Of a stretch of 64,000 nt of DNA, positions 43,647-49,748 are shown piece after piece. A program made the translations under genes and the position numbers. The notes beneath the pieces were generated by a model, which had not been told where the DNA came from, ran no database searches, and saw nothing but the letters and a program-made list of their open reading frames with translations. This DNA is from Escherichia phage vB_EcoA_4HA11: the sequence record MN445184. One strand, written 5' to 3'. Position 1 is the stretch's first letter; every line of letters begins with the position of its first letter.

Positions 43647-45857
43647 TCAATTCTTAAACCACTCATCCATGGTCATCCCTGACATTTCGTTGAAAACTTG
43701 AATACCCCCGAAACCAGGCAAATGCTCAGTTTCGGATGGGGTGTCTCCAACGACTAAACCGCCAAATGGGAATACCTGCTGAGATTCAGTTGAAGACATT
43801 CGGTTTCTCATGTCCTGAGAAATACTTGTAGATGTCAAATCACTGAACCATTCTTGTTTTACCGCCCATGAATATAAGACCAACGGCATGACACAGTCAT
43901 CGTGACAACCGTCATCGGCTTCATACCGAGCGCCTTTGAACACAAATGTACTGAGTTCATCTATCGTGTCCTGGTCTTCTATCACCAACATTTCTTTCTC
44001 AATGAGCGCTTTCAGGTTAGCACAACCGATAGATCGGACTTTTCTGTTGGTATTGATACCAGGTTCCGGTTTACGCCCACCAATCCGTTTCCCCGTCCCT
44101 TTGTTATCTGTTGATGTGAATATGATTTCTGGATATTCTATCTCTTGATAAAGAATTGTAATAACCTGACCGCCGACGTCGTTGTTTGTTTCAACAAGGA
44201 CAGGACATTCCCCGTATTCGGTGCACATATCAGCTATCGTGTATGCATACATCATAGGAGGTATCGTATTATTCCTGTACTTGGCTGCTATGACATGCGG
44301 ATATTCAGTTATATCCAGAATTGTTAAGACGGAATAATCTCCTTCCACCCCCTTCCCAGTGTCCGCAATCCCAAAGTAGAGACGTTGTGGGTCGTATTCC
44401 TTATAAATCTTGGTGAATTCATTAGGTTCCCGATACAACTTGGACGTCATTTTATCTAAGCATTTGGCCGGAATCAATGAACCCACGGAACCACGGAACT
44501 TAATGCCAAATTCTTGATCGAAACGAGCATCCCCCAGACGGGCACGTTGTTTGGTTTCCCAATCTGGATCTTTGGTATATGCCGGAACCTTATACCATGG
44601 GACTTCAGTTAGGTGGAAGTCGTTGTATTGTGGATGGCGCGGATCTGCTTTGGTGACAATATCATAGAACAACCCTCGCTGGCCTTTCGGAGTACTTGTC
44701 AAAATACAGCGTGATGTATCGGCAGATGCAATGGCTGGGAAAGTTGATTCCCAAAATTCAAAGTCGTTTTCGATAAACGCGACTTCGTCAACGTACAAGA
44801 GCGATACAGAACGACCACGGATGGAGTCCGAAGACGTGGCATAAGCGTATATCTTAGAACCATTTTCAAACTCTATCAGGGTAGAACCAAACTTCTCACA
44901 ACCCTGCTGAAGGAAGAATGGAAGGTCTTGGTATGCCTTTCTGATACGGTCAAGAATTTCTATCGCTTGTTTCTCTTTGTTTGCCAGTACTGCGATTTCC
45001 TTATCAGAATGGAACATCGCATACCAAAGAAGAAACGCCGCCACCACGGTCGTGTTATGACTGAGAAAGCCATTCGTGTAATAACGTTGATCACTAGATT
45101 TGACCTGCAGATCGTACATATGGTGATATTCACCAGTCTGCCAAATCTCACGGATTTCTTCTGGACCTTCTGTCGTCATGATGTATGACCCAGCATTCAG
45201 GTCTTTGGCAAATGTCTCCTTCATGTCCGGAGTGAAGAACATATGTTCATCGGCCACGTTAATTCGCCTTCCGGTAACTGTGACAATAACGAATTCCGCA
45301 TATTTCTTCGTCTTATGCGCTGCGATAACCGGAACCCAGCCACTATCGGATTGTACAAAGTAACGTTTGCCGAAGCGGCTGTCCACGAACTTGTCATGGT
45401 TGCCAATGGTATTCAGCGGCACAGCGTGGTTGACGTCCTCGAATCGGCTGTGAAGCTCCCCTATGGTCAGGAGCAACTCCTCTTGGCTGAGAGTATCGTA
45501 AACTGTGACAAGCGTGTCGCCTTTTACACATTTTCCAGACTGACGAGCCTGGATGACCGCATTGAATCGATAGTCCTGAAAGTCATGGAACAACTGTTTC
45601 TGATAATCATGCATATCGAAAAGGATAAAGCCTTTATCGATCGTGGTTATCTTGTAATAGTTGGCGGCGAAGTAGTGTGCATCCATAGAACATTCAACGA
45701 ATTCGTCTTCTTGTTCATCTGTCAGCATTAACTCGACTCGAGGAGCACGCACAGAAGGTTTGCGCATAAACGTTTGGTCCATACGCAATTTCACATCGTC
45801 TATTTTGAACCCCGTTTTAATTGGGGCATATTCTATATCACGCTTCTGATACGCCAT
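43647..45857 (-). CDS. gp17: terminase large subunit (gp17-like) interrupted by an intein
   Basis: Extein flanks ARQSGK / TTVVAAFLLWYAMF match T4 gp17 P-loop SRQLGKTTVVAIFLAHF; nuclease-domain region downstream. Confidence 0.9.
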   Translation of the reverse strand: MAYQKRDIEYAPIKTGFKIDDVKLRMDQTFMRKPSVRAPRVELMLTDEQEDEFVECSMDAHYFAANYYKITTIDKGFILFDMHDYQKQLFHDFQDYRFNAVIQARQSGKCVKGDTLVTVYDTLSQEELLLTIGELHSRFEDVNHAVPLNTIGNHDKFVDSRFGKRYFVQSDSGWVPVIAAHKTKKYAEFVIVTVTGRRINVADEHMFFTPDMKETFAKDLNAGSYIMTTEGPEEIREIWQTGEYHHMYDLQVKSSDQRYYTNGFLSHNTTVVAAFLLWYAMFHSDKEIAVLANKEKQAIEILDRIRKAYQDLPFFLQQGCEKFGSTLIEFENGSKIYAYATSSDSIRGRSVSLLYVDEVAFIENDFEFWESTFPAIASADTSRCILTSTPKGQRGLFYDIVTKADPRHPQYNDFHLTEVPWYKVPAYTKDPDWETKQRARLGDARFDQEFGIKFRGSVGSLIPAKCLDKMTSKLYREPNEFTKIYKEYDPQRLYFGIADTGKGVEGDYSVLTILDITEYPHVIAAKYRNNTIPPMMYAYTIADMCTEYGECPVLVETNNDVGGQVITILYQEIEYPEIIFTSTDNKGTGKRIGGRKPEPGINTNRKVRSIGCANLKALIEKEMLVIEDQDTIDELSTFVFKGARYEADDGCHDDCVMPLVLYSWAVKQEWFSDLTSTSISQDMRNRMSSTESQQVFPFGGLVVGDTPSETEHLPGFGGIQVFNEMSGMTMDEWFKN
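45054..45530 (-). mobile_element. mini-intein (159 aa) within terminase large subunit
   Basis: Insert begins CVKGDTLVTV, ends GFLSHN, followed by Thr; splits the Walker A motif between GK and T. Confidence 0.75.
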
Positions 45858-46524
45858 CGTCTTCTTCCTTCACATCAACTGTTTCACCATCAATGATTTC
45901 ATCTTCTGGTTGTTGTGCGGCCTTTGCTTGTGCTCTTTCTTCAGCGCGACGGCGGGCATCTTCAATCGTCTTCAATAAATCGCGAGAAGATCGCGCCTTT
46001 TTCCCAACCGATACTGTTGTTGTTCCGTCTGGTGAAGTTGTAACATCCACTGTCGTGTCATCAACAGGTGGTTCTTTATCACCTGTTACTGCCTTGATGG
46101 TTTTCTGGTTTTCCATCAAGTCTTTATTCAGACCGCGCATGAGTTCACCCAATTCACGGAAAACAGAAAATGCTCGCGGAGCTTCTGTGGATGCAGCCAA
46201 TTTAGCGGCTTGTCCCATCATGAACATTGTGGCTTCTTGCATGGCATATGTTGTGTCGCGTATCCGTTTGTAATCCGTTGTAGCATCAGTGTCCGCAAAC
46301 TCAGGTACTTTGGATTCCTTGGAAGCAATATCCTCCAATGAAGGAGGTTCAGGAATCGGCTGATACCCTTCCGGACGTTCACCAAACCATTCACCTGTAT
46401 TTTCATCGAAGTCAATACCTGGACGAGGGGCGACAGCCTCCATCGCCTCCTTCCCAACTTCGTCTCGGGCGGTCACTGCATCAAGTGTGGCGAGTAACCT
46501 TTCTGACATATTGCTCATGATCAA
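45838..46524 (-). CDS. terminase small subunit (gp16-like, by position)
   Basis: Immediately upstream of and overlapping the large subunit; likely ATG 46518 with GGAGG SD. Confidence 0.5.
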   Translation of the reverse strand: MIMSNMSERLLATLDAVTARDEVGKEAMEAVAPRPGIDFDENTGEWFGERPEGYQPIPEPPSLEDIASKESKVPEFADTDATTDYKRIRDTTYAMQEATMFMMGQAAKLAASTEAPRAFSVFRELGELMRGLNKDLMENQKTIKAVTGDKEPPVDDTTVDVTTSPDGTTTVSVGKKARSSRDLLKTIEDARRRAEERAQAKAAQQPEDEIIDGETVDVKEEDDGVSEA

Positions 46525-47219
46525 TCCTCCGGATGATGTATGCCGTCTTTATCAACTCGGAACCACTCAGGAAGTTCCGACCATGGCATGTTCAAATCAT
46601 TAGACATTTCAATAATTATCTCTTTGATGACGTTTGGATCCCCACCGCCCGAACCATCATCAACCCAATAATCTTCTCCATAGATGTGACCATGTAATTG
46701 AAAATTGAATGAACAATCTATGTGTGGTGATTCTGTTGCGTCCCCTTCCCAGTTGTCAGAAATCGTGTGATTTACCAACATTATCTTCACGTTCTGATCT
46801 TGAGATAAAGTATCGTTGTCCTTTATCTGACAGTCAACAGAAGGAGTGAACACAGAATAAATTTGTTCTAATACTTGCAACATTTCGACCAATTTTTTAG
46901 TTCTGATATTGTATTCAAAATCTATAATGATCGGAATGCGTTGTTTGGACCGTGCCGTAGCGGTCGATATTTGGTTGTGGTATGACTTCGTCACCTGTTT
47001 ATTGATTTCGAACTGACCAAAGGACATTGTTGCAAATGGCAGCATATTGGCTGGCACGTTCCTGTTGAGGTCATTACGGCGGCCAATGGCCATATGCAGC
47101 GGAATTTCCATCAAGCCACGTTCGGTTTTGACTTTTAAATCTGACATGATAGCGTTGAACACATGTATGTATTTCAACAATGATTCATGATAGAAATATT
47201 TTTCAAATGGTCTGGCCAT
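46521..47219 (-). CDS. neck/tail-completion protein (gp15-like by synteny)
   Basis: 232-aa ORF upstream of terminase genes. Confidence 0.4.
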   Translation of the reverse strand: MARPFEKYFYHESLLKYIHVFNAIMSDLKVKTERGLMEIPLHMAIGRRNDLNRNVPANMLPFATMSFGQFEINKQVTKSYHNQISTATARSKQRIPIIIDFEYNIRTKKLVEMLQVLEQIYSVFTPSVDCQIKDNDTLSQDQNVKIMLVNHTISDNWEGDATESPHIDCSFNFQLHGHIYGEDYWVDDGSGGGDPNVIKEIIIEMSNDLNMPWSELPEWFRVDKDGIHHPED

Positions 47220-47221
47220 GA

Positions 47222-47863
47222 TTATTCCCCGAAGTCGATCTTCATTTTATTGGGCGAAAGATCTTTCTCTATTTCGTCCGCAAATTGGTTATCCGTTTGC
47301 AGGCTGGCGTCTTTGTACACACCGTCTCCTTCCAGATCCTGCAATCGTTTATCAATATCGTCTATTTCAGATACACCTGTATCGAAATCTTCGTTACCGT
47401 ATTGGAACAACGTACATGGTAGGGAATATGTGTACCATTTCCCAAATTGCATGAATTCTTCATCGTTATTCGGGTTATTCACTTTAAATATTTTGTTAGC
47501 CATAGGCAGATATATCAAATCACCTTCTTGAGGCATTTGTTCAAGGCCTGGACCATTACCAATAACTTCTGAAAAACGACGACGAGCAATAGTGAATGTC
47601 ACTTCATCTTGTAATTGGATACCGCCGAACTTTTCCCACATCTGTGTGTTGAAGCCTTGATAATCCTGCATGTACACTTCGATGTCAAACGCTTGGTCGA
47701 ATTTGTGTTCGGCCTCGTTTAAAATTGGGTATTTTTCAACAATAGAACGTGGAATATACTTGACATCAATCCCACGCAATTGTATCATCTCGACCACCAA
47801 GTCATCAATTAATTTTTGAGTCCCTTGGTGTGCAGTGTAATTGAAGTATCGAGAAGTAGCCAT
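47222..47863 (-). CDS. neck protein (gp14-like by synteny)
   Basis: 213-aa ORF; ACTAAATA motif 25 nt upstream. Confidence 0.4.
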   Translation of the reverse strand: MATSRYFNYTAHQGTQKLIDDLVVEMIQLRGIDVKYIPRSIVEKYPILNEAEHKFDQAFDIEVYMQDYQGFNTQMWEKFGGIQLQDEVTFTIARRRFSEVIGNGPGLEQMPQEGDLIYLPMANKIFKVNNPNNDEEFMQFGKWYTYSLPCTLFQYGNEDFDTGVSEIDDIDKRLQDLEGDGVYKDASLQTDNQFADEIEKDLSPNKMKIDFGE

Positions 47864-47887
47864 AATATTTTCCTCAAGATTTAAATA

Positions 47888-47895
47888 TATTTAGT
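47888..47895 (-). promoter_or_regulatory. late-promoter-like motif ACTAAATA
   Basis: 25 nt upstream of ATG 47863. Confidence 0.35.
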
Positions 47896-47921
47896 TGAAT
47901 TTGTTTTTAAGGTGAATCAAT

Positions 47922-48632
47922 ATGATCGTCCTGACAGAAGGAATTGCTTCTAAAAGAATCAAATCATATGCTTCTTCTAGAGGTGGAATATTTCACGGAT
48001 TTGTCGGTGGTAAATTTGTCACCAACCAAACTAAGTGTATTTTGTCTTGCGAATTTGGTCATGAATGGAACTCAGCAACTTATGCGAATTTGATAAATAA
48101 AGGAAGTTGGTGTCCTTCGTGTCGTGGAAACAAGAAGATCTCAAATGAAGAAGCTAAAATCAGGATATCGGAGTACGCCGTAAGCAACGGTGGTAAATTC
48201 ATAAATTTCATTGGCGGGAAGTACAAAGACAACGTGACAATTTGTGTCATGGAATGTTCTGAAACACACAGGTGGGAATCCAGGTACGGTAATTTAGTCA
48301 ACAGCCGAAGTTGGTGTCCGTATTGCGCAGAATCGGGTTACAATTATTCTAAGGAAGGTTTCTTATATATTCTAGTCAACGACGAAGGTTGTATGAAAGT
48401 GGGAATAACCAACTCACCTAAGAAACGCATAAATTGTTTAAGAAGCAGCACCCCGTTTGACTTCAACGTTCTAGAAATATTCAATTCAACCGACGGATTA
48501 TTTGTTTCCAGGTTGGAAAGAATTGCCCATAGAATGTGTAAGAGCGCGGGATATAAGGATTTTGACGGTGCTACCGAATGGTTTGTATATGACGGGTCAG
48601 TCGTAGATTTTATCAGAAATATTTTGAAGTAG
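47922..48632 (+). mobile_element. T5orf172/GIY-YIG-superfamily endonuclease-like gene with two N-terminal zinc-finger repeats
   Basis: Two repeats of C..C..H.W...WCP.C; C-terminal GFLYILVNDEGCMKVGIT...ATEWF; plus strand inside minus-strand structural block; AAGGTG SD. Confidence 0.55.
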
Positions 48633-48659
48633 CCATGACTTTACCCTCAATTTTGAAGG

Positions 48660-48667
48660 TATTTAGT
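48660..48667 (-). promoter_or_regulatory. extra copy of ACTAAATA motif on the 3' side of the plus-strand insertion
   Basis: Same 8-mer; no minus-strand start codon within 50 nt. Confidence 0.2.
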
Positions 48668-48697
48668 CAATCATTAATTCTTTTGAGGAATTGATAA

Positions 48698-48910
48698 ATG
48701 AAGGTTGAAGATATTAAAGAAACTCGTGACGGAAGGCGTGTGAGAATTATCTGTGTAGATGCTAAAATCGCCGATGGTTCATATAACATTGTGGGTCTTA
48801 TCAAAGGCGAAAAGGGAAATGATTTTATTGAATGGTGGGACGAAAAGAACGTGGTTGATGGTTATATTCTAGCAAATTCAGATCCTTCCGGACGCGACAT
48901 CAAGTTATAA
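48698..48910 (+). CDS. small hypothetical protein co-oriented with the endonuclease-like gene
   Basis: 70-aa ORF with GAGGAA SD. Confidence 0.4.
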   Translation: MKVEDIKETRDGRRVRIICVDAKIADGSYNIVGLIKGEKGNDFIEWWDEKNVVDGYILANSDPSGRDIKL

Positions 48911-48937
48911 AAAGAAAGGCGGGTTATCCCGCCTTCT
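48911..48937. terminator. bidirectional terminator hairpin
   Basis: AAGGCGGG-TTAT-CCCGCCTT stem between convergent genes. Confidence 0.55.
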
Positions 48938-48938
48938 C

Positions 48939-49748
48939 TTATCCCATCATGAAATCAATGGGGTATTGCTGACCAGTACGCAATTCTTCCTCCAACCGCT
49001 CTATCTCGGTCTCGGCCTCACTGAACATACTATCACCATCCAGTTCGATACCACCAGGGAGACGGATGCCTCTTGCCTTCTTAAGCACCTCTGCCCAACG
49101 GCGCTTGACCAATGCAGTCGCATACGCTTTCAACCACATATCATTCCATGCTTCAGCGTTTTCTTCCGATTCGGGGTCGATATTTTGATAACAACGAAAA
49201 GCCAGGGTTTCATCAACAATGGCAGCAAACTGCGGGTAAAGGCGTCGCTGGAACTTCTTGTACACAAAATTACGGCGAACATTTAAGACGCTTGTGATAT
49301 CCGACAGGCGTTGTTGCATGGAAACATAATCAATGAGACGAATAGAAACCAGCGCTGCTTTGGGGACAAGCATTGCTTGAGCCATTTGCCATTGAGGAGT
49401 TGCCCAGTTTCCGATTGACTCAATAGGAGGTCCAGGGATAACTTCAATCACATCGTCAATATCATCGGGAAATTCTATATACCCCTTGTCAATATCTTCT
49501 TGTTTAACTTGGTACAGGAAGAACGCATCTTGGCTACCATCACGATGATATTCCCAAAATTTCTGCAGAGCATCATCGACTGCATCTTCGACTTGTGAAC
49601 TGTCAAGGTTAATTTGGATCACAGGAGCGCCCAATTTACGCAAGACATAATTCATAAAAGATTTTTTGTCTCGAATCTTATTGACGGCCATTGTTATTCC
49701 CCTTTTGCTGCAAATCAGATACAGTAATCCGCAGTGTGCGAACATCAT
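48939..49748 (-). CDS. neck/head-completion protein (gp13-like by synteny)
   Basis: Likely start ATG 49691 with AAGGGG SD. Confidence 0.4.
   Translation of the reverse strand: MMFAHCGLLYLICSKRGITMAVNKIRDKKSFMNYVLRKLGAPVIQINLDSSQVEDAVDDALQKFWEYHRDGSQDAFFLYQVKQEDIDKGYIEFPDDIDDVIEVIPGPPIESIGNWATPQWQMAQAMLVPKAALVSIRLIDYVSMQQRLSDITSVLNVRRNFVYKKFQRRLYPQFAAIVDETLAFRCYQNIDPESEENAEAWNDMWLKAYATALVKRRWAEVLKKARGIRLPGGIELDGDSMFSEAETEIERLEEELRTGQQYPIDFMMG

What the first reader, a model, noticed from the sequence alone, without database searches (positions are those of the whole stretch)
47922..48910. Opposite-strand insertion in the neck gene block: zinc-finger plus T5orf172-type endonuclease-like gene with a companion small ORF
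Two plus-strand genes with good SDs interrupt a uniformly minus-strand morphogenesis operon. The first has two tandem ~60-aa zinc-finger repeats (C..C..H.W....WCP.C) and a C-terminal GFLYILVNDEGCMKVGIT...EWF segment typical of the T5orf172 branch of the GIY-YIG superfamily. ACTAAATA motif copies lie on both sides (47888 and 48660), and a bidirectional terminator at 48911..48937 closes the cassette.
Basis: partly seen in the sequence, partly recalled or inferred. Interest (0 to 1): 0.6.

Follow-up and report, generated by a model that had tools for sequence, protein, structure and literature searches.

The report
Homing endonuclease cassette inside neck gene
One of the two plus-strand genes is a selfish "homing" nuclease gene present in about a fifth of related phages, and it sits inside the start of an essential neck gene by bringing its own replacement promoter and first codons for that gene; the other small gene is an ordinary resident of the phage family.

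Summary
The window comes from a Kuttervirus phage (Ackermannviridae, 98.9% identical to EP75).

- **What is mobile.** Only ORF1 (47922-48632) is mobile. It occurs in 48 of 272 Ackermannviridae records. In 223 records the gp14/ORF2 junction is uninterrupted.
- **What is resident.** ORF2 (48698-48910) and the hairpin at 48915-48936 are present in every record, so they are resident features, not companions of ORF1.
- **What ORF1 encodes.** It has two CapR-type zinc-finger domains followed by a T5orf172 (GIY-YIG superfamily) nuclease domain. This is the free-standing homing endonuclease class described in vibriophage ICP1.
- **The real cassette.** It is a 773-bp unit, about 47843-48615. Besides the nuclease gene it carries a recoded copy of gp14 codons 1 to about 8, a new ribosome-binding site and a new CTAAATA late promoter.
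- **The relic.** The native gp14 promoter, ribosome-binding site and first seven codons are stranded at 48616-48667 and supply ORF1's stop codon.
- **Evidence of transfer.** The cassette is 92-100% identical between genera whose flanks are only 65-79% identical. Divergent alleles show dN/dS of about 0.1.

Cleavage of empty gp14 alleles near codons 5-9 is inferred, not shown. I rate this a new variant of a known kind, of moderate interest.

The parts
47222..47863 (-). gp14 neck / head-closure gene, the gene the element sits in
   Evidence: Pfam T4_neck-protein 1.1e-26 and phrog_679 Hc2 1.9e-74.
47822..47863 (-). Recoded 5' end of gp14 (nt 1-42). Nucleotides 1 to about 24 (47840-47863) travel with the element in every genus.
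   Evidence: There are 9 differences from CBA120 in 42 nt, all silent except K5R, while the rest of gp14 is 98-99% identical. ATG GCT ACT TCT CGA TAC TTC AA is shared by the filled sites in Kuttervirus alleles A and B, Limestonevirus and metagenomic contig L005; the filled Agtrevirus pSal-SNUABM-02 has CGT for CGA (one base).
47864..47921 (.). 58-bp leader brought by the element. Minus strand: GAGGAA ribosome-binding site (47870-47875) and CTAAATA late promoter (47888-47894) for gp14. Plus strand: TTTAAATA (47880-47887) and AAGGTG (47909-47914) ahead of ORF1.
   Evidence: Found only in endonuclease-positive records: 40 records, 36 of them 100% identical, from Salmonella, Escherichia and Dickeya phages. 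The motif context matches the other late genes.
47922..48632 (+). ORF1, a free-standing homing endonuclease gene of 236 aa. CapR zinc finger 1 is about 47943-48122, CapR zinc finger 2 about 48150-48329, and the T5orf172 nuclease domain about 48357-48614.
   Evidence: - Family matches.
- Invariant residues Y149, K159, G161, R169, H203, E219.
- AF2 model pLDDT 88.
- dN/dS 0.09-0.13 for the A-A, A-D and A-B pairs from the window.
47843..47884 (.). Left copy of the imperfect 42-nt direct repeat (the new gp14 start plus leader)
   Evidence: the repeat finder family D1: 71% identical to 48616-48657, spacing 773 nt.
48616..48667 (-). Relic of the native gp14 expression signals. It holds codons 1-7 (48616-48636, now a 7-codon ORF MATSKYF ending in TGA at 48613-48615), the GAGGG ribosome-binding site (48644-48648) and the native CTAAATA late promoter (48660-48666). 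The antisense of the relic supplies ORF1's last codons and its TAG stop (48630-48632).
   Evidence: 100% identical to the functional gp14 start region of the empty-site phage CBA120. The relic is backbone-specific in LIMEstone1, pSal-SNUABM-02 and L005.
48698..48910 (+). ORF2, a resident 70-aa gene of the Ackermannviridae. It is not part of the mobile element.
   Evidence: - Present in all 272 records.
- phrog_4466, function unknown.
- 32 homologue clusters; every named source is an Ackermannviridae phage.
- pN 0.14-0.31 with saturated pS.
48915..48936 (-). Resident hairpin terminator where gp13 and ORF2 converge
   Evidence: 9-pair stem followed by CTTTTTAT, scored on the minus strand only. 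100% conserved in the empty-site phage CBA120.
47760..47788 (+). Candidate sigma-70-type promoter, antisense inside gp14, that could drive ORF1 and ORF2. Speculative.
   Evidence: TTGACA-17-TATCAT, 11 of 12 matches. The hexamers are conserved across genera, but they lie in conserved coding sequence, so this is inconclusive.

Best explanation
ORF1 is a free-standing homing endonuclease gene of the CapR-zinc-finger / T5orf172 (GIY-YIG superfamily) class. It lives inside the first codons of the essential neck gene gp14 of Ackermannviridae phages.

**The mobile unit.** It is about 773 bp (window about 47843-48615). Reading along the plus strand it consists of:
- the reverse complement of a recoded gp14 start (codons 1 to about 8, TCA AAA TAT changed to TCT CGA TAC);
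- a new ribosome-binding site and a new CTAAATA late promoter for gp14;
- the ribosome-binding site and ORF of the endonuclease.

**Why gp14 still works.** The element brings its own promoter and 5' coding end, so gp14 stays intact without any intron or intein. The native promoter, ribosome-binding site and first 7 codons are left as a relic just downstream of the endonuclease gene.

**Proposed mechanism (inferred).** In a mixed infection the two zinc-finger modules bind the native gp14 leader and 5' region of an endonuclease-less phage. The GIY-YIG-type domain cuts near gp14 nt 15-25. Recombinational repair then copies the cassette from the carrier genome. The homology arms are the gp14 body on one side and the relic plus ORF2 on the other.

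**Immunity of the carrier (inferred).** The carrier is immune because the site is split by the insert and the working copy is recoded.

**Resident features.** ORF2 and the hairpin are resident family genes that happen to lie next to the insertion site.
For: **Shown**
1. Presence/absence at one site: 48 of 272 records are filled and 223 have an uninterrupted junction. Empty and filled phages have 98-100% identical flanks for the window against CBA120, and mostly 95-100% for pSal-SNUABM-02 against CAU_YEP3, except the first 45 nt of gp14 (91%) and ORF2 (68-83%).
2. All six empty sites examined keep one native leader: gaCTAAATAccttcaaaattGAGGGta..ATG GCY ACT TCW AAA TAT. Filled sites of alleles A, B and D share one foreign leader and a recoded gp14 start, plus a backbone-specific relic; allele C has its own leader, and alleles B and C keep only the relic promoter. 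The tool finds an imperfect 42-nt direct repeat with 773-nt spacing.
3. Horizontal transfer: between the window and LIMEstone1 the flanks are 65-79% identical, but the leader is 100% and ORF1 92-95% identical. Allele B (SS9) lies in 98-100% identical flanks yet is only 68-73% identical, with dS about 1.9.
4. Purifying selection: dN/dS is 0.09-0.13 for the pairs comparing the window allele with other A, D and B alleles.
6. No intron signal: Rfam finds nothing but a sub-threshold sRNA hit at the hairpin.

**From the literature**
- T5orf172 nuclease activity was demonstrated for ICP1 Odn, and the E180A mutant is dead (PMC8263062).
- The CapR domain binds DNA through its cysteines (PMC8096241).
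- CapR plus T5orf172 homing endonuclease genes cluster at essential phage genes (PMC10448857).

**Inferred**
- The cut-site position is deduced from where recipient-type sequence resumes: by nt 6 of the relic (the recipient-specific GCC) on one side and by about nt 25-45 of gp14 on the other.
Against: - No cleavage, homing or expression data exist for this protein.
- Only 18% of records carry the gene, which is low for an efficient driver.
- In Limestonevirus it looks fixed in the records that carry the locus contiguously. All 15 Dickeya records have a Cys135-to-Tyr change in a zinc ligand, so that lineage's copy may be decaying.
- The 58-bp leader is 100% identical in 36 records even where the ORF body is saturated at silent sites. 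Simple homing does not explain this.
- The promoter that drives ORF1 is not identified.
Confidence: 0.8

Rival explanations
1. ORF1 and ORF2 with the hairpin form one two-gene opposite-strand cassette inserted between the neck genes.
For: - Both genes are on the plus strand, adjacent, and followed by a hairpin.
- From my own knowledge of the T4 gene map, not checked here, genes 13 and 14 are adjacent in T4, so relative to T4 both genes would be extra.
Against: - ORF2 and the hairpin are present in all 272 Ackermannviridae records, but ORF1 in only 48.
- In CBA120, ORF2 and the hairpin are 100% identical to the window while ORF1 is missing.
- Between genera ORF1 is 92-95% identical but ORF2 only 67%.
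Confidence: 0.03
2. ORF1 is a domesticated DNA-binding regulator, comparable to the satellite repressor CapR or to I-TevI autorepression. On this reading it acts on the adjacent late promoter(s) of gp14 and is no longer a mobile nuclease.
For: - CapR domains are sequence-specific DNA binders, and PLE CapR represses a phage promoter.
- The gene sits directly against two late promoters.
- The 58-bp leader is unusually invariant.
- The gene is under purifying selection.
Against: - The nuclease-motif Tyr, Arg and Glu are invariant across alleles that are saturated at silent sites.
- The gene is dispensable, being absent from 82% of relatives.
- It has moved between genera together with a recoded target, which a regulator has no reason to do.
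- A dual role is not excluded.
Confidence: 0.1
3. ORF1 is a nuclease weapon against something other than sibling phages, for example a satellite or host element as with ICP1 Odn. On this reading its position at gp14 is incidental.
For: T5orf172 nucleases have been co-opted against satellites (PMC8263062; PMC10448857).
Against: - Its DNA-binding modules are the generic CapR type of homing endonucleases, not a captured replication-initiator domain.
- Four allele types all occupy exactly the same site, and in alleles A, B and D the same gp14 codons are recoded. This is the signature of self-targeting immunity.
Confidence: 0.05
4. The gene is intron- or intein-encoded within gp14, and the relic is a true first exon.
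For: The relic keeps a promoter, a ribosome-binding site, an ATG and 7 in-frame gp14 codons.
Against: - No group I or II intron model matches.
- The endonuclease is on the opposite strand.
- The working gp14 has its own complete promoter, ribosome-binding site, ATG and full N-terminus.
- Alleles B and C have deleted the relic ATG and ribosome-binding site without harm to gp14.
Confidence: 0.01

Closest known systems
ICP1 vibriophage CapR-domain / T5orf172 homing endonucleases (Gp174, Gp165, Gp121, Gp53, Gp130) and their relatives surveyed by Barth, Dunham & Seed 2023 (PMC10448857; PMC8096241)
   Same: - Same architecture: one or more N-terminal CapR zinc-finger DNA-binding repeats followed by a C-terminal T5orf172 domain.
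- Free-standing and next to essential structural or packaging genes.
- The number of repeats varies between alleles; here 2 in alleles A, B and D and 3 in allele C.
   Different: - Different phage family. Ackermannviridae, Kuttervirus and CBA120 do not occur in the main text of that survey.
- Sequence identity to the non-Ackermannviridae relatives recovered is at most 43%.
- That paper does not mention a replacement promoter or 5' end of the target gene; 'start codon' and 'recoded' each have 0 occurrences.
ICP1 Odn (Gp88), a T5orf172 nuclease (PMC8263062)
   Same: - Same catalytic domain family.
- It provides the only biochemical proof that T5orf172 domains cut DNA, with a catalytic Glu that corresponds to E219 here.
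   Different: Odn uses a RepA_N DNA-binding domain and targets a satellite origin of replication. It is not a homing element.
T4 Seg-type free-standing GIY-YIG endonucleases and 'intronless homing' (my own knowledge: Belle et al. 2002; Edgell, Gibb & Belfort 2010)
   Same: - Free-standing nuclease gene in a T4-like morphogenesis or replication cluster.
- Presumed to cut a neighbouring conserved gene of a competitor phage.
- Spreads with short co-conversion of flanking markers.
   Different: - Domain order is reversed: in Seg and I-TevI the nuclease is N-terminal.
- The nuclease belongs to a different GIY-YIG clade.
- To my knowledge, Seg genes sit between genes and leave no duplicated gene end.
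Fungal mitochondrial mobile endonuclease ORFs that carry a replacement gene end (Allomyces macrogynus atp6; Glomus atp6, atp9, cox2, nad3; PMC3630166)
   Same: - The endonuclease ORF travels with a foreign, diverged copy of the terminal part of its target gene. That copy becomes the expressed one.
- The native end is left downstream as an unexpressed relic.
- The native relic matches close relatives, while the inserted end is foreign.
   Different: - Here the replaced part is the 5' end, and it includes the promoter and ribosome-binding site; in the fungal cases it is the 3' end.
- The endonuclease is on the opposite strand and is not fused in frame.
- The host is a phage, and only about 8 codons are replaced.
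I-TevI (GIY-YIG domain with a zinc finger, plus autorepression at its own late promoter)
   Same: - Modular GIY-YIG nuclease with a zinc-finger-containing DNA-binding region.
- It is a precedent for a homing endonuclease binding a late promoter.
   Different: I-TevI is intron-encoded, has the opposite domain order, and shows no detectable sequence similarity.

Membership tests
T5orf172 / GIY-YIG nuclease superfamily | Profile match above the curated threshold | tested here: met
   PF10544 scores 31.2 bits (cut-off 20) over residues 146-231. PF13455 MUG113 scores 38.6 bits (cut-off 22.3).
T5orf172 / GIY-YIG nuclease superfamily | Conserved catalytic-motif residues: Tyr of the first strand, Arg in helix 1, and the distal Glu | tested here: met
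   Y149, R169 and E219 are invariant in 11 sequences down to 27% identity, as are K159, G161, N164 and H203.
T5orf172 / GIY-YIG nuclease superfamily | GIY-YIG alpha/beta fold | tested here: met
   [not shown]
T5orf172 / GIY-YIG nuclease superfamily | DNA cleavage activity | not testable with these tools
   Shown only for the relative Odn (PMC8263062).
CapR-homology zinc-finger DNA-binding domain | Profile match and four zinc-ligand cysteines per repeat | tested here: met
   PF21817 scores 50.2 bits (cut-off 24.2) in 2 stretches. C39/C43...C64/C67 and C108/C112...C132/C135 are conserved.
Free-standing homing endonuclease gene | Presence/absence polymorphism at one precise site among close relatives | tested here: met
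   48 records are filled and 223 empty out of 272. Flanks are 98-100% identical between filled and empty phages.
Free-standing homing endonuclease gene | Not inside an intron or intein; has its own translation signals | tested here: met
   No intron model matches. The gene has its own ribosome-binding site and ATG, lies on the opposite strand, and gp14 is complete.
Free-standing homing endonuclease gene | Carrier allele differs from the empty allele at the presumed target (immunity) | tested here: met
   The native site is split by the insert. The working copy is recoded at nt 12, 13, 14 and 18 and further on, identically in four backbones and with one base different (CGT) in pSal-SNUABM-02. 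That this region is the recognition site is an inference.
Free-standing homing endonuclease gene | Horizontal spread independent of the backbone | tested here: met
   The cassette is 92-100% identical while flanks are 65-79% identical between Kuttervirus and Limestonevirus. It is also found in an Agtrevirus and in a metagenomic backbone.
Free-standing homing endonuclease gene | Endonuclease cuts the empty allele and drives super-Mendelian inheritance | not testable with these tools
   Needs in vitro cleavage assays and mixed-infection crosses.
Gene-end-replacing mobile endonuclease ORFs (fungal mitochondrial mORF type) | A foreign copy of the target gene's terminal segment is in use, and the native segment is retained as a relic beyond the endonuclease ORF | tested here: met
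   The imperfect direct repeat 47843-47884 / 48616-48657 is 71% identical. The relic is identical to the native CBA120 sequence, and the new copy is shared across genera. It is a mirror image of the fungal cases, because the 5' end and the promoter are replaced.

The most novel reading that the evidence does not exclude
This would be the first phage example I could find of a homing endonuclease gene occupying the coding sequence of an essential gene with no intron or intein. It does so by carrying a portable late promoter, ribosome-binding site and recoded first codons for that gene. That would make it the 5'-end mirror image of the fungal mitochondrial elements that replace 3' gene ends.

On this reading:
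- the junction of the relic marks the cleavage site, predicted within gp14 nt 15-25;
- the stranded native late promoter still fires late, reading antisense through the endonuclease gene into gp14. That would shut the selfish gene off late in infection and back up gp14 expression.
Probability: 0.4. Interest if true: 0.55.

Novelty: new variant of a known kind. Interest (0 to 1): 0.42.

Why it matters
- **Corrects the literature.** The locus has been described as a two-gene insertion of hypothetical proteins. The LIMEstone1 genome paper left ORF152 out of its 14 homing endonucleases.
- **Adds a phage family.** The Ackermannviridae include many biocontrol and therapy candidates for Salmonella, E. 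coli O157 and Dickeya. This result adds them to the lineages invaded by CapR/T5orf172 homing endonucleases.
- **Shows how the element tolerates an essential gene.** The junction anatomy shows how a selfish nuclease gene can sit inside an essential gene by bringing that gene's promoter and first codons.
- **Makes a sharp prediction.** It places the cut site within about 10 nt, and natural filled/empty pairs that infect the same host (EP75 or PhaxI against CBA120) are available for crosses.
- **Practical consequence.** Such elements bias marker inheritance in phage cocktails.

Tried and rejected
- **Paralogues in the window.** tblastn with ORF1 and ORF2 found none.
- **Other opposite-strand ORFs in the window.** Six plus-strand ORFs tested as possible further endonucleases: none; only one DUF7424 match.
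- **Intron or ribozyme.** Nothing above threshold.
- **Defence-system and NCBIfam libraries.** Only noise-level hits.
- **Sequence search of solved structures with the family profile.** No relative found.
- **Exact-pattern scan of IMG/VR for the new leader.** Only four contigs, whose lengths match already-seen isolates (EP75, Mutine, LIMEstone1, barely).
- **Distant relative P0005 (43% identity).** It lies in an unrelated phage context and shows no flanking gene-end duplication, so the architecture is not general to the family.
- **Sigma-70-like promoter at 47760-47788.** Its conservation is confounded by gp14 coding constraint.
- **Deletion rather than insertion.** Rejected. The six empty sites examined carry one intact native leader, not a recombinant of the two repeat copies, and the cassette is far more similar across genera than the backbones are.
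Full report
**Context.** The window is a T4-like morphogenesis region of an Ackermannviridae phage. A 3-kb stretch around the finding is 98.9% identical to Escherichia phage EP75 and 98.4% to PhaxI, both in genus Kuttervirus.

The minus strand carries, from low to high coordinates:
- large terminase, 43647-45857;
- small terminase, 45838-46524;
- gp15 tail-sheath stabiliser, 46521-47219;
- gp14 neck / head-closure protein, 47222-47863;
- gp13 adaptor, 48939-49748.

Two plus-strand ORFs lie between gp14 and gp13: ORF1 (47922-48632, 236 aa) and ORF2 (48698-48910, 70 aa).

**Observation check.**
- ORF1 has two tandem repeats of about 60 aa (residues 8-67 and 77-135) with the pattern C..C..H.W...WCPxC.
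- Pfam calls both repeats CapR homology domains: 50.2 bits against a cut-off of 24.2, in two stretches.
- Pfam calls the C-terminus T5orf172 (31.2 bits, cut-off 20) and MUG113.
- PHROGs places ORF1 in an 'endonuclease' family at 3.6e-60.
- GC skew flips sign over 47800-49000.
- CTAAATA occurs 11 times in the window, which is not more than chance (13 of 100 shuffles reach 11). However, 10 of the 11 are on the minus strand. Nine of those lie 25-45 nt upstream of a ribosome-binding site and ATG of a minus-strand gene. It is therefore the late-promoter box of this phage, the counterpart of TATAAATA in T4. The LIMEstone1 record annotates the same position as a putative late promoter on both strands.
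- The hairpin at 48915-48936 is real, but it scores as a terminator only for the minus strand.

**What is inserted and what is resident.** I queried 47864-48938 against 50,697 phage records and 272 matched.
- Only 48 records cover the ORF1 part. All the others match only 48616-48938, that is ORF2 plus the hairpin.
- The reciprocal query used the uninterrupted gp14-to-ORF2 junction of CBA120. It is contiguous in 223 of the same 272 records and split into two places in 48 (320 places in total).
- The uninterrupted junction was confirmed by direct inspection in CBA120 (Kuttervirus), UPM 2146 (Taipeivirus), P46FS4 (Agtrevirus), phiDP10.3 and ZQ1 (other Aglimvirinae) and Yersinia phage CAU_YEP3; each of these (in CBA120 unannotated but 100% identical) also carries ORF2.
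- ORF2 protein is conserved across these lineages, with saturated silent sites. It has 32 homologue clusters, all about 70 aa, and every cluster that a source names comes from an Ackermannviridae phage.

So ORF2 and the hairpin are resident, and only ORF1 is variable. [quoted passage not shown]

**Anatomy of the junctions.** In all six empty sites examined the gp14 start region is the same:

gaCTAAATAccttcaaaattGAGGGta.... ATG GCY ACT TCW AAA TAT TTY AAC

In filled sites of three allele types, the working gp14 has a different leader and start:

caaattcaaCTAAATAtatttaaatcttGAGGAaaatatt ATG GCT ACT TCT CGA TAC TTC AA

These filled sites are:
- allele A: the window, LIMEstone1 and pSal-SNUABM-02;
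- allele B: SS9;
- allele D: metagenomic contig L005.

Further points on the junctions:
- The new leader and start are essentially identical in the window, LIMEstone1 and SS9, with one to a few base differences in pSal-SNUABM-02 and L005, whatever the backbone.
- The 58-bp leader is found in 40 records, all of them endonuclease-positive, and 36 are 100% identical.
- In alleles A and D, directly after the 3' end of ORF1 lies a backbone-specific copy of the native signals: the native promoter, ribosome-binding site and first 15-21 nt of gp14.
- In alleles B and C the relic start codon and ribosome-binding site are deleted, and only the native promoter remains.
- In the window this relic is 48616-48667 and is 100% identical to the functional sequence of CBA120.
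- The relic now forms a 7-codon ORF (MATSKYF, stop). Its antisense supplies ORF1's last codons and its TAG stop. This is why the C-terminal tails differ between alleles: NILK, KNF, NEFLK and NTFEGI (L005 allele).
- The repeat finder recovers this independently, as an imperfect 42-nt direct repeat at 47843-47884 and 48616-48657, 71% identical with a spacing of 773 nt.
- The window and CBA120 differ at 9 positions in gp14 nt 1-42. All are silent except K5R. The remainder of gp14 is 98-99% identical.

The mobile unit is therefore about 47843-48615. It begins inside gp14 and includes a replacement promoter, ribosome-binding site and first codons for gp14.

**Evidence of mobility and function.**
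- The window and LIMEstone1 belong to different subfamilies (Cvivirinae and Aglimvirinae). Their flanks are 65-79% identical. Their leader is 100% identical and ORF1 92-95% identical.
- The Agtrevirus pSal-SNUABM-02 carries a cassette 97-100% identical to LIMEstone1. Its gp14 and gp13 are mostly 95-100% identical to the empty Yersinia phage CAU_YEP3, though its ORF2 region is not.
- Within Kuttervirus, allele B (SS9 type) sits in flanks 98-100% identical to the window. Its ORF is only 68-73% identical, at 65% protein identity and dS about 1.9.
- Allele C (FrontPhageNews type, 309 aa) has a third zinc-finger repeat and its own diverged leader, joined to an allele-B-like C-terminal two-thirds.
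- Allele D (76% protein identity) occupies the same site in a metagenomic backbone.
- dN/dS is 0.09-0.13 between the window allele and other A, D and B alleles, and rises to 0.38-0.44 in the B/C chimera comparison and the near-identical LIME/pSal02 pair.
- No group I or II intron model matches the region.

**The protein.**
- In an alignment reaching down to 27% identity, the zinc-ligand cysteines and Y149, K159, G161, N164, R169, E199, H203, E219 and W220 are invariant. Y149, R169 and E219 correspond to the GIY-YIG Tyr, Arg and Glu.
- The AlphaFold model is confident: pLDDT 88.1. Its pTM of 0.46 is what one would expect from three domains on flexible linkers.
- More than 200 predicted phage protein structures match at E of 0.001 or better; the named ones are labelled CapR-homology, T5 Orf172, GIY-YIG, zinc-ribbon/treble-clef or homing endonuclease.
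- No solved structure of the family exists.

**Mechanism, shown and inferred.**

Shown:
- the polymorphism;
- the exact junctions;
- the duplicated and recoded gp14 start;
- the transfer between genera;
- the selective constraint;
- the domain family.

Taken from the literature:
- T5orf172 domains cut DNA, and the conserved Glu is required (Odn, PMC8263062).
- CapR domains bind DNA through their cysteines (PMC8096241).
- CapR plus T5orf172 genes are free-standing homing endonucleases clustered at essential phage genes (PMC10448857).

Inferred:
- In mixed infections the protein recognises the native gp14 leader and 5' region, cuts near gp14 nt 15-25, and is copied in by recombinational repair.
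- The cut-site estimate comes from where recipient-type sequence resumes. On the relic side recipient-specific bases are visible by nt 6 (GCC in LIMEstone1 and pSal-SNUABM-02 against GCT in the window), and the junction itself lies at nt 15-21. On the gp14 side the resumption lies between nt 24 and 30 in LIMEstone1 and by nt 42 in the window.
- Such short conversion tracts on both sides point to a break at the junction.
- The relic gives homology immediately at the break.
- The carrier is protected because the site is split and the working copy is recoded.
- gp13 transcription ends at the hairpin, so gp14 needs its own late promoter. That would explain why the element has to carry one.

**Open points.**
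- The promoter for ORF1 is unknown. One candidate is a TTTAAATA box on the plus strand of the palindromic leader (47880-47887). The other is a strong sigma-70-like site antisense inside gp14 (47760-47788, 11 of 12 matches). The conservation of the second cannot be separated from coding constraint.
- The relic late promoter is retained in all four alleles. It would read antisense through ORF1, and whether it fires is untested.
- The 100% identity of the leader between alleles A and B, whose bodies are saturated at silent sites, is unexplained. Recombination between carriers or strong constraint on a dense bidirectional control region are both possible.
- All 15 Dickeya phage records share a Cys135-to-Tyr change in the second zinc finger. 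This is compatible with decay where the element is fixed.

**Comparison and novelty.**
- The protein class is known, and several GenBank records already label it 'endonuclease' or 'GIY-YIG'.
- My searches did not find the following described anywhere:
  - this locus treated as a mobile element of the Ackermannviridae;
  - the separation of ORF1 from ORF2;
  - a cassette that carries the promoter and 5' end of its target gene.
- The nearest precedent for the last feature is the mirror-image case in fungal mitochondria. There, mobile endonuclease ORFs bring a foreign 3' end of atp6, atp9, cox2 or nad3 and leave the native end as a relic (PMC3630166).

I rate it a new variant of a known kind, of moderate interest.

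Noticed in passing
window 45054-45530 (minus strand), inside the large terminase gene 43647-45857: A 159-aa mini-intein is inserted in the Walker A P-loop of the large terminase: ...ARQSGK|CVKGDTLV...FLSHN|TTVVAAF. The Pfam Intein_splicing match is below its threshold (29.3 against 35.8 bits). The CBA120 terminase gene has the same length.
   Followed up: partly
[not shown]
   Followed up: partly
L002 2934-2936 (LIMEstone1 ORF152 codon 135), and 14 other Dickeya phage records: All 15 Dickeya phage records carry TAC (Tyr) in place of the last zinc-ligand Cys of the second CapR finger. All 12 allele-A Kuttervirus and Agtrevirus records differ from the Dickeya sequence at 2 of the 71 bases (97.2%), and in the two read directly (the window and pSal-SNUABM-02) codon 135 is Cys. 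The element may be decaying where it is fixed.
   Followed up: partly
window 47864-47921: The 58-bp leader is 100% identical in 36 of 40 records from three genera. That includes allele-B phages whose endonuclease body is only about 70% identical (dS about 1.9). The sharp switch lies near ORF1 codon 7. The cause is unexplained; it could be recombination between carriers or a densely constrained bidirectional control region.
   Followed up: partly
window 48621-48628 and 48650-48657 (minus strand: TTCAAAAT): The native gp14 leader and 5' coding region contains the 8-mer TTCAAAAT twice, 29 nt apart. It is conserved in four of the six empty sites examined; ZQ1 and CAU_YEP3 have TTCTAAAT in the coding copy. 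Both copies are absent from the element's replacement leader and start. They could be binding sites for the two zinc-finger modules, but this is untested and could be chance.
   Followed up: no
window 47760-47788 (+), antisense inside gp14: A near-consensus sigma-70-type promoter, TTGACA-17-TATCAT, points toward ORF1 and ORF2. In empty-site phages it would lie about 100 nt upstream of ORF2. The insertion may therefore have placed the endonuclease gene first in a small early operon.
   Followed up: partly
L004 2187-3116 (Salmonella phage FrontPhageNews and 7 other records): Allele C is a chimera. It has a distinct leader, a distinct recoded gp14 start (MGTSKYFNYTN) and an extra, third CapR repeat, joined to a C-terminal two-thirds that is nearly identical to allele B. 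This is an example of the repeat shuffling reported for ICP1 endonucleases.
   Followed up: partly
KM209270.1 (L010) and KM209271.1, Dickeya phage phiDP10.3: The two contigs deposited for this phage carry an empty gp14/ORF2 junction (at a contig start) and an endonuclease-bearing junction (near a contig end) respectively. This suggests a mixed phage population or an assembly break at this locus.
   Followed up: no
L002 1-443 (LIMEstone1 ORF148, F-LimIX): In LIMEstone1 another free-standing endonuclease gene lies between the two terminase subunit genes, a position that is uninterrupted in the window. The packaging and neck block is a hot spot for such elements in this family.
   Followed up: no
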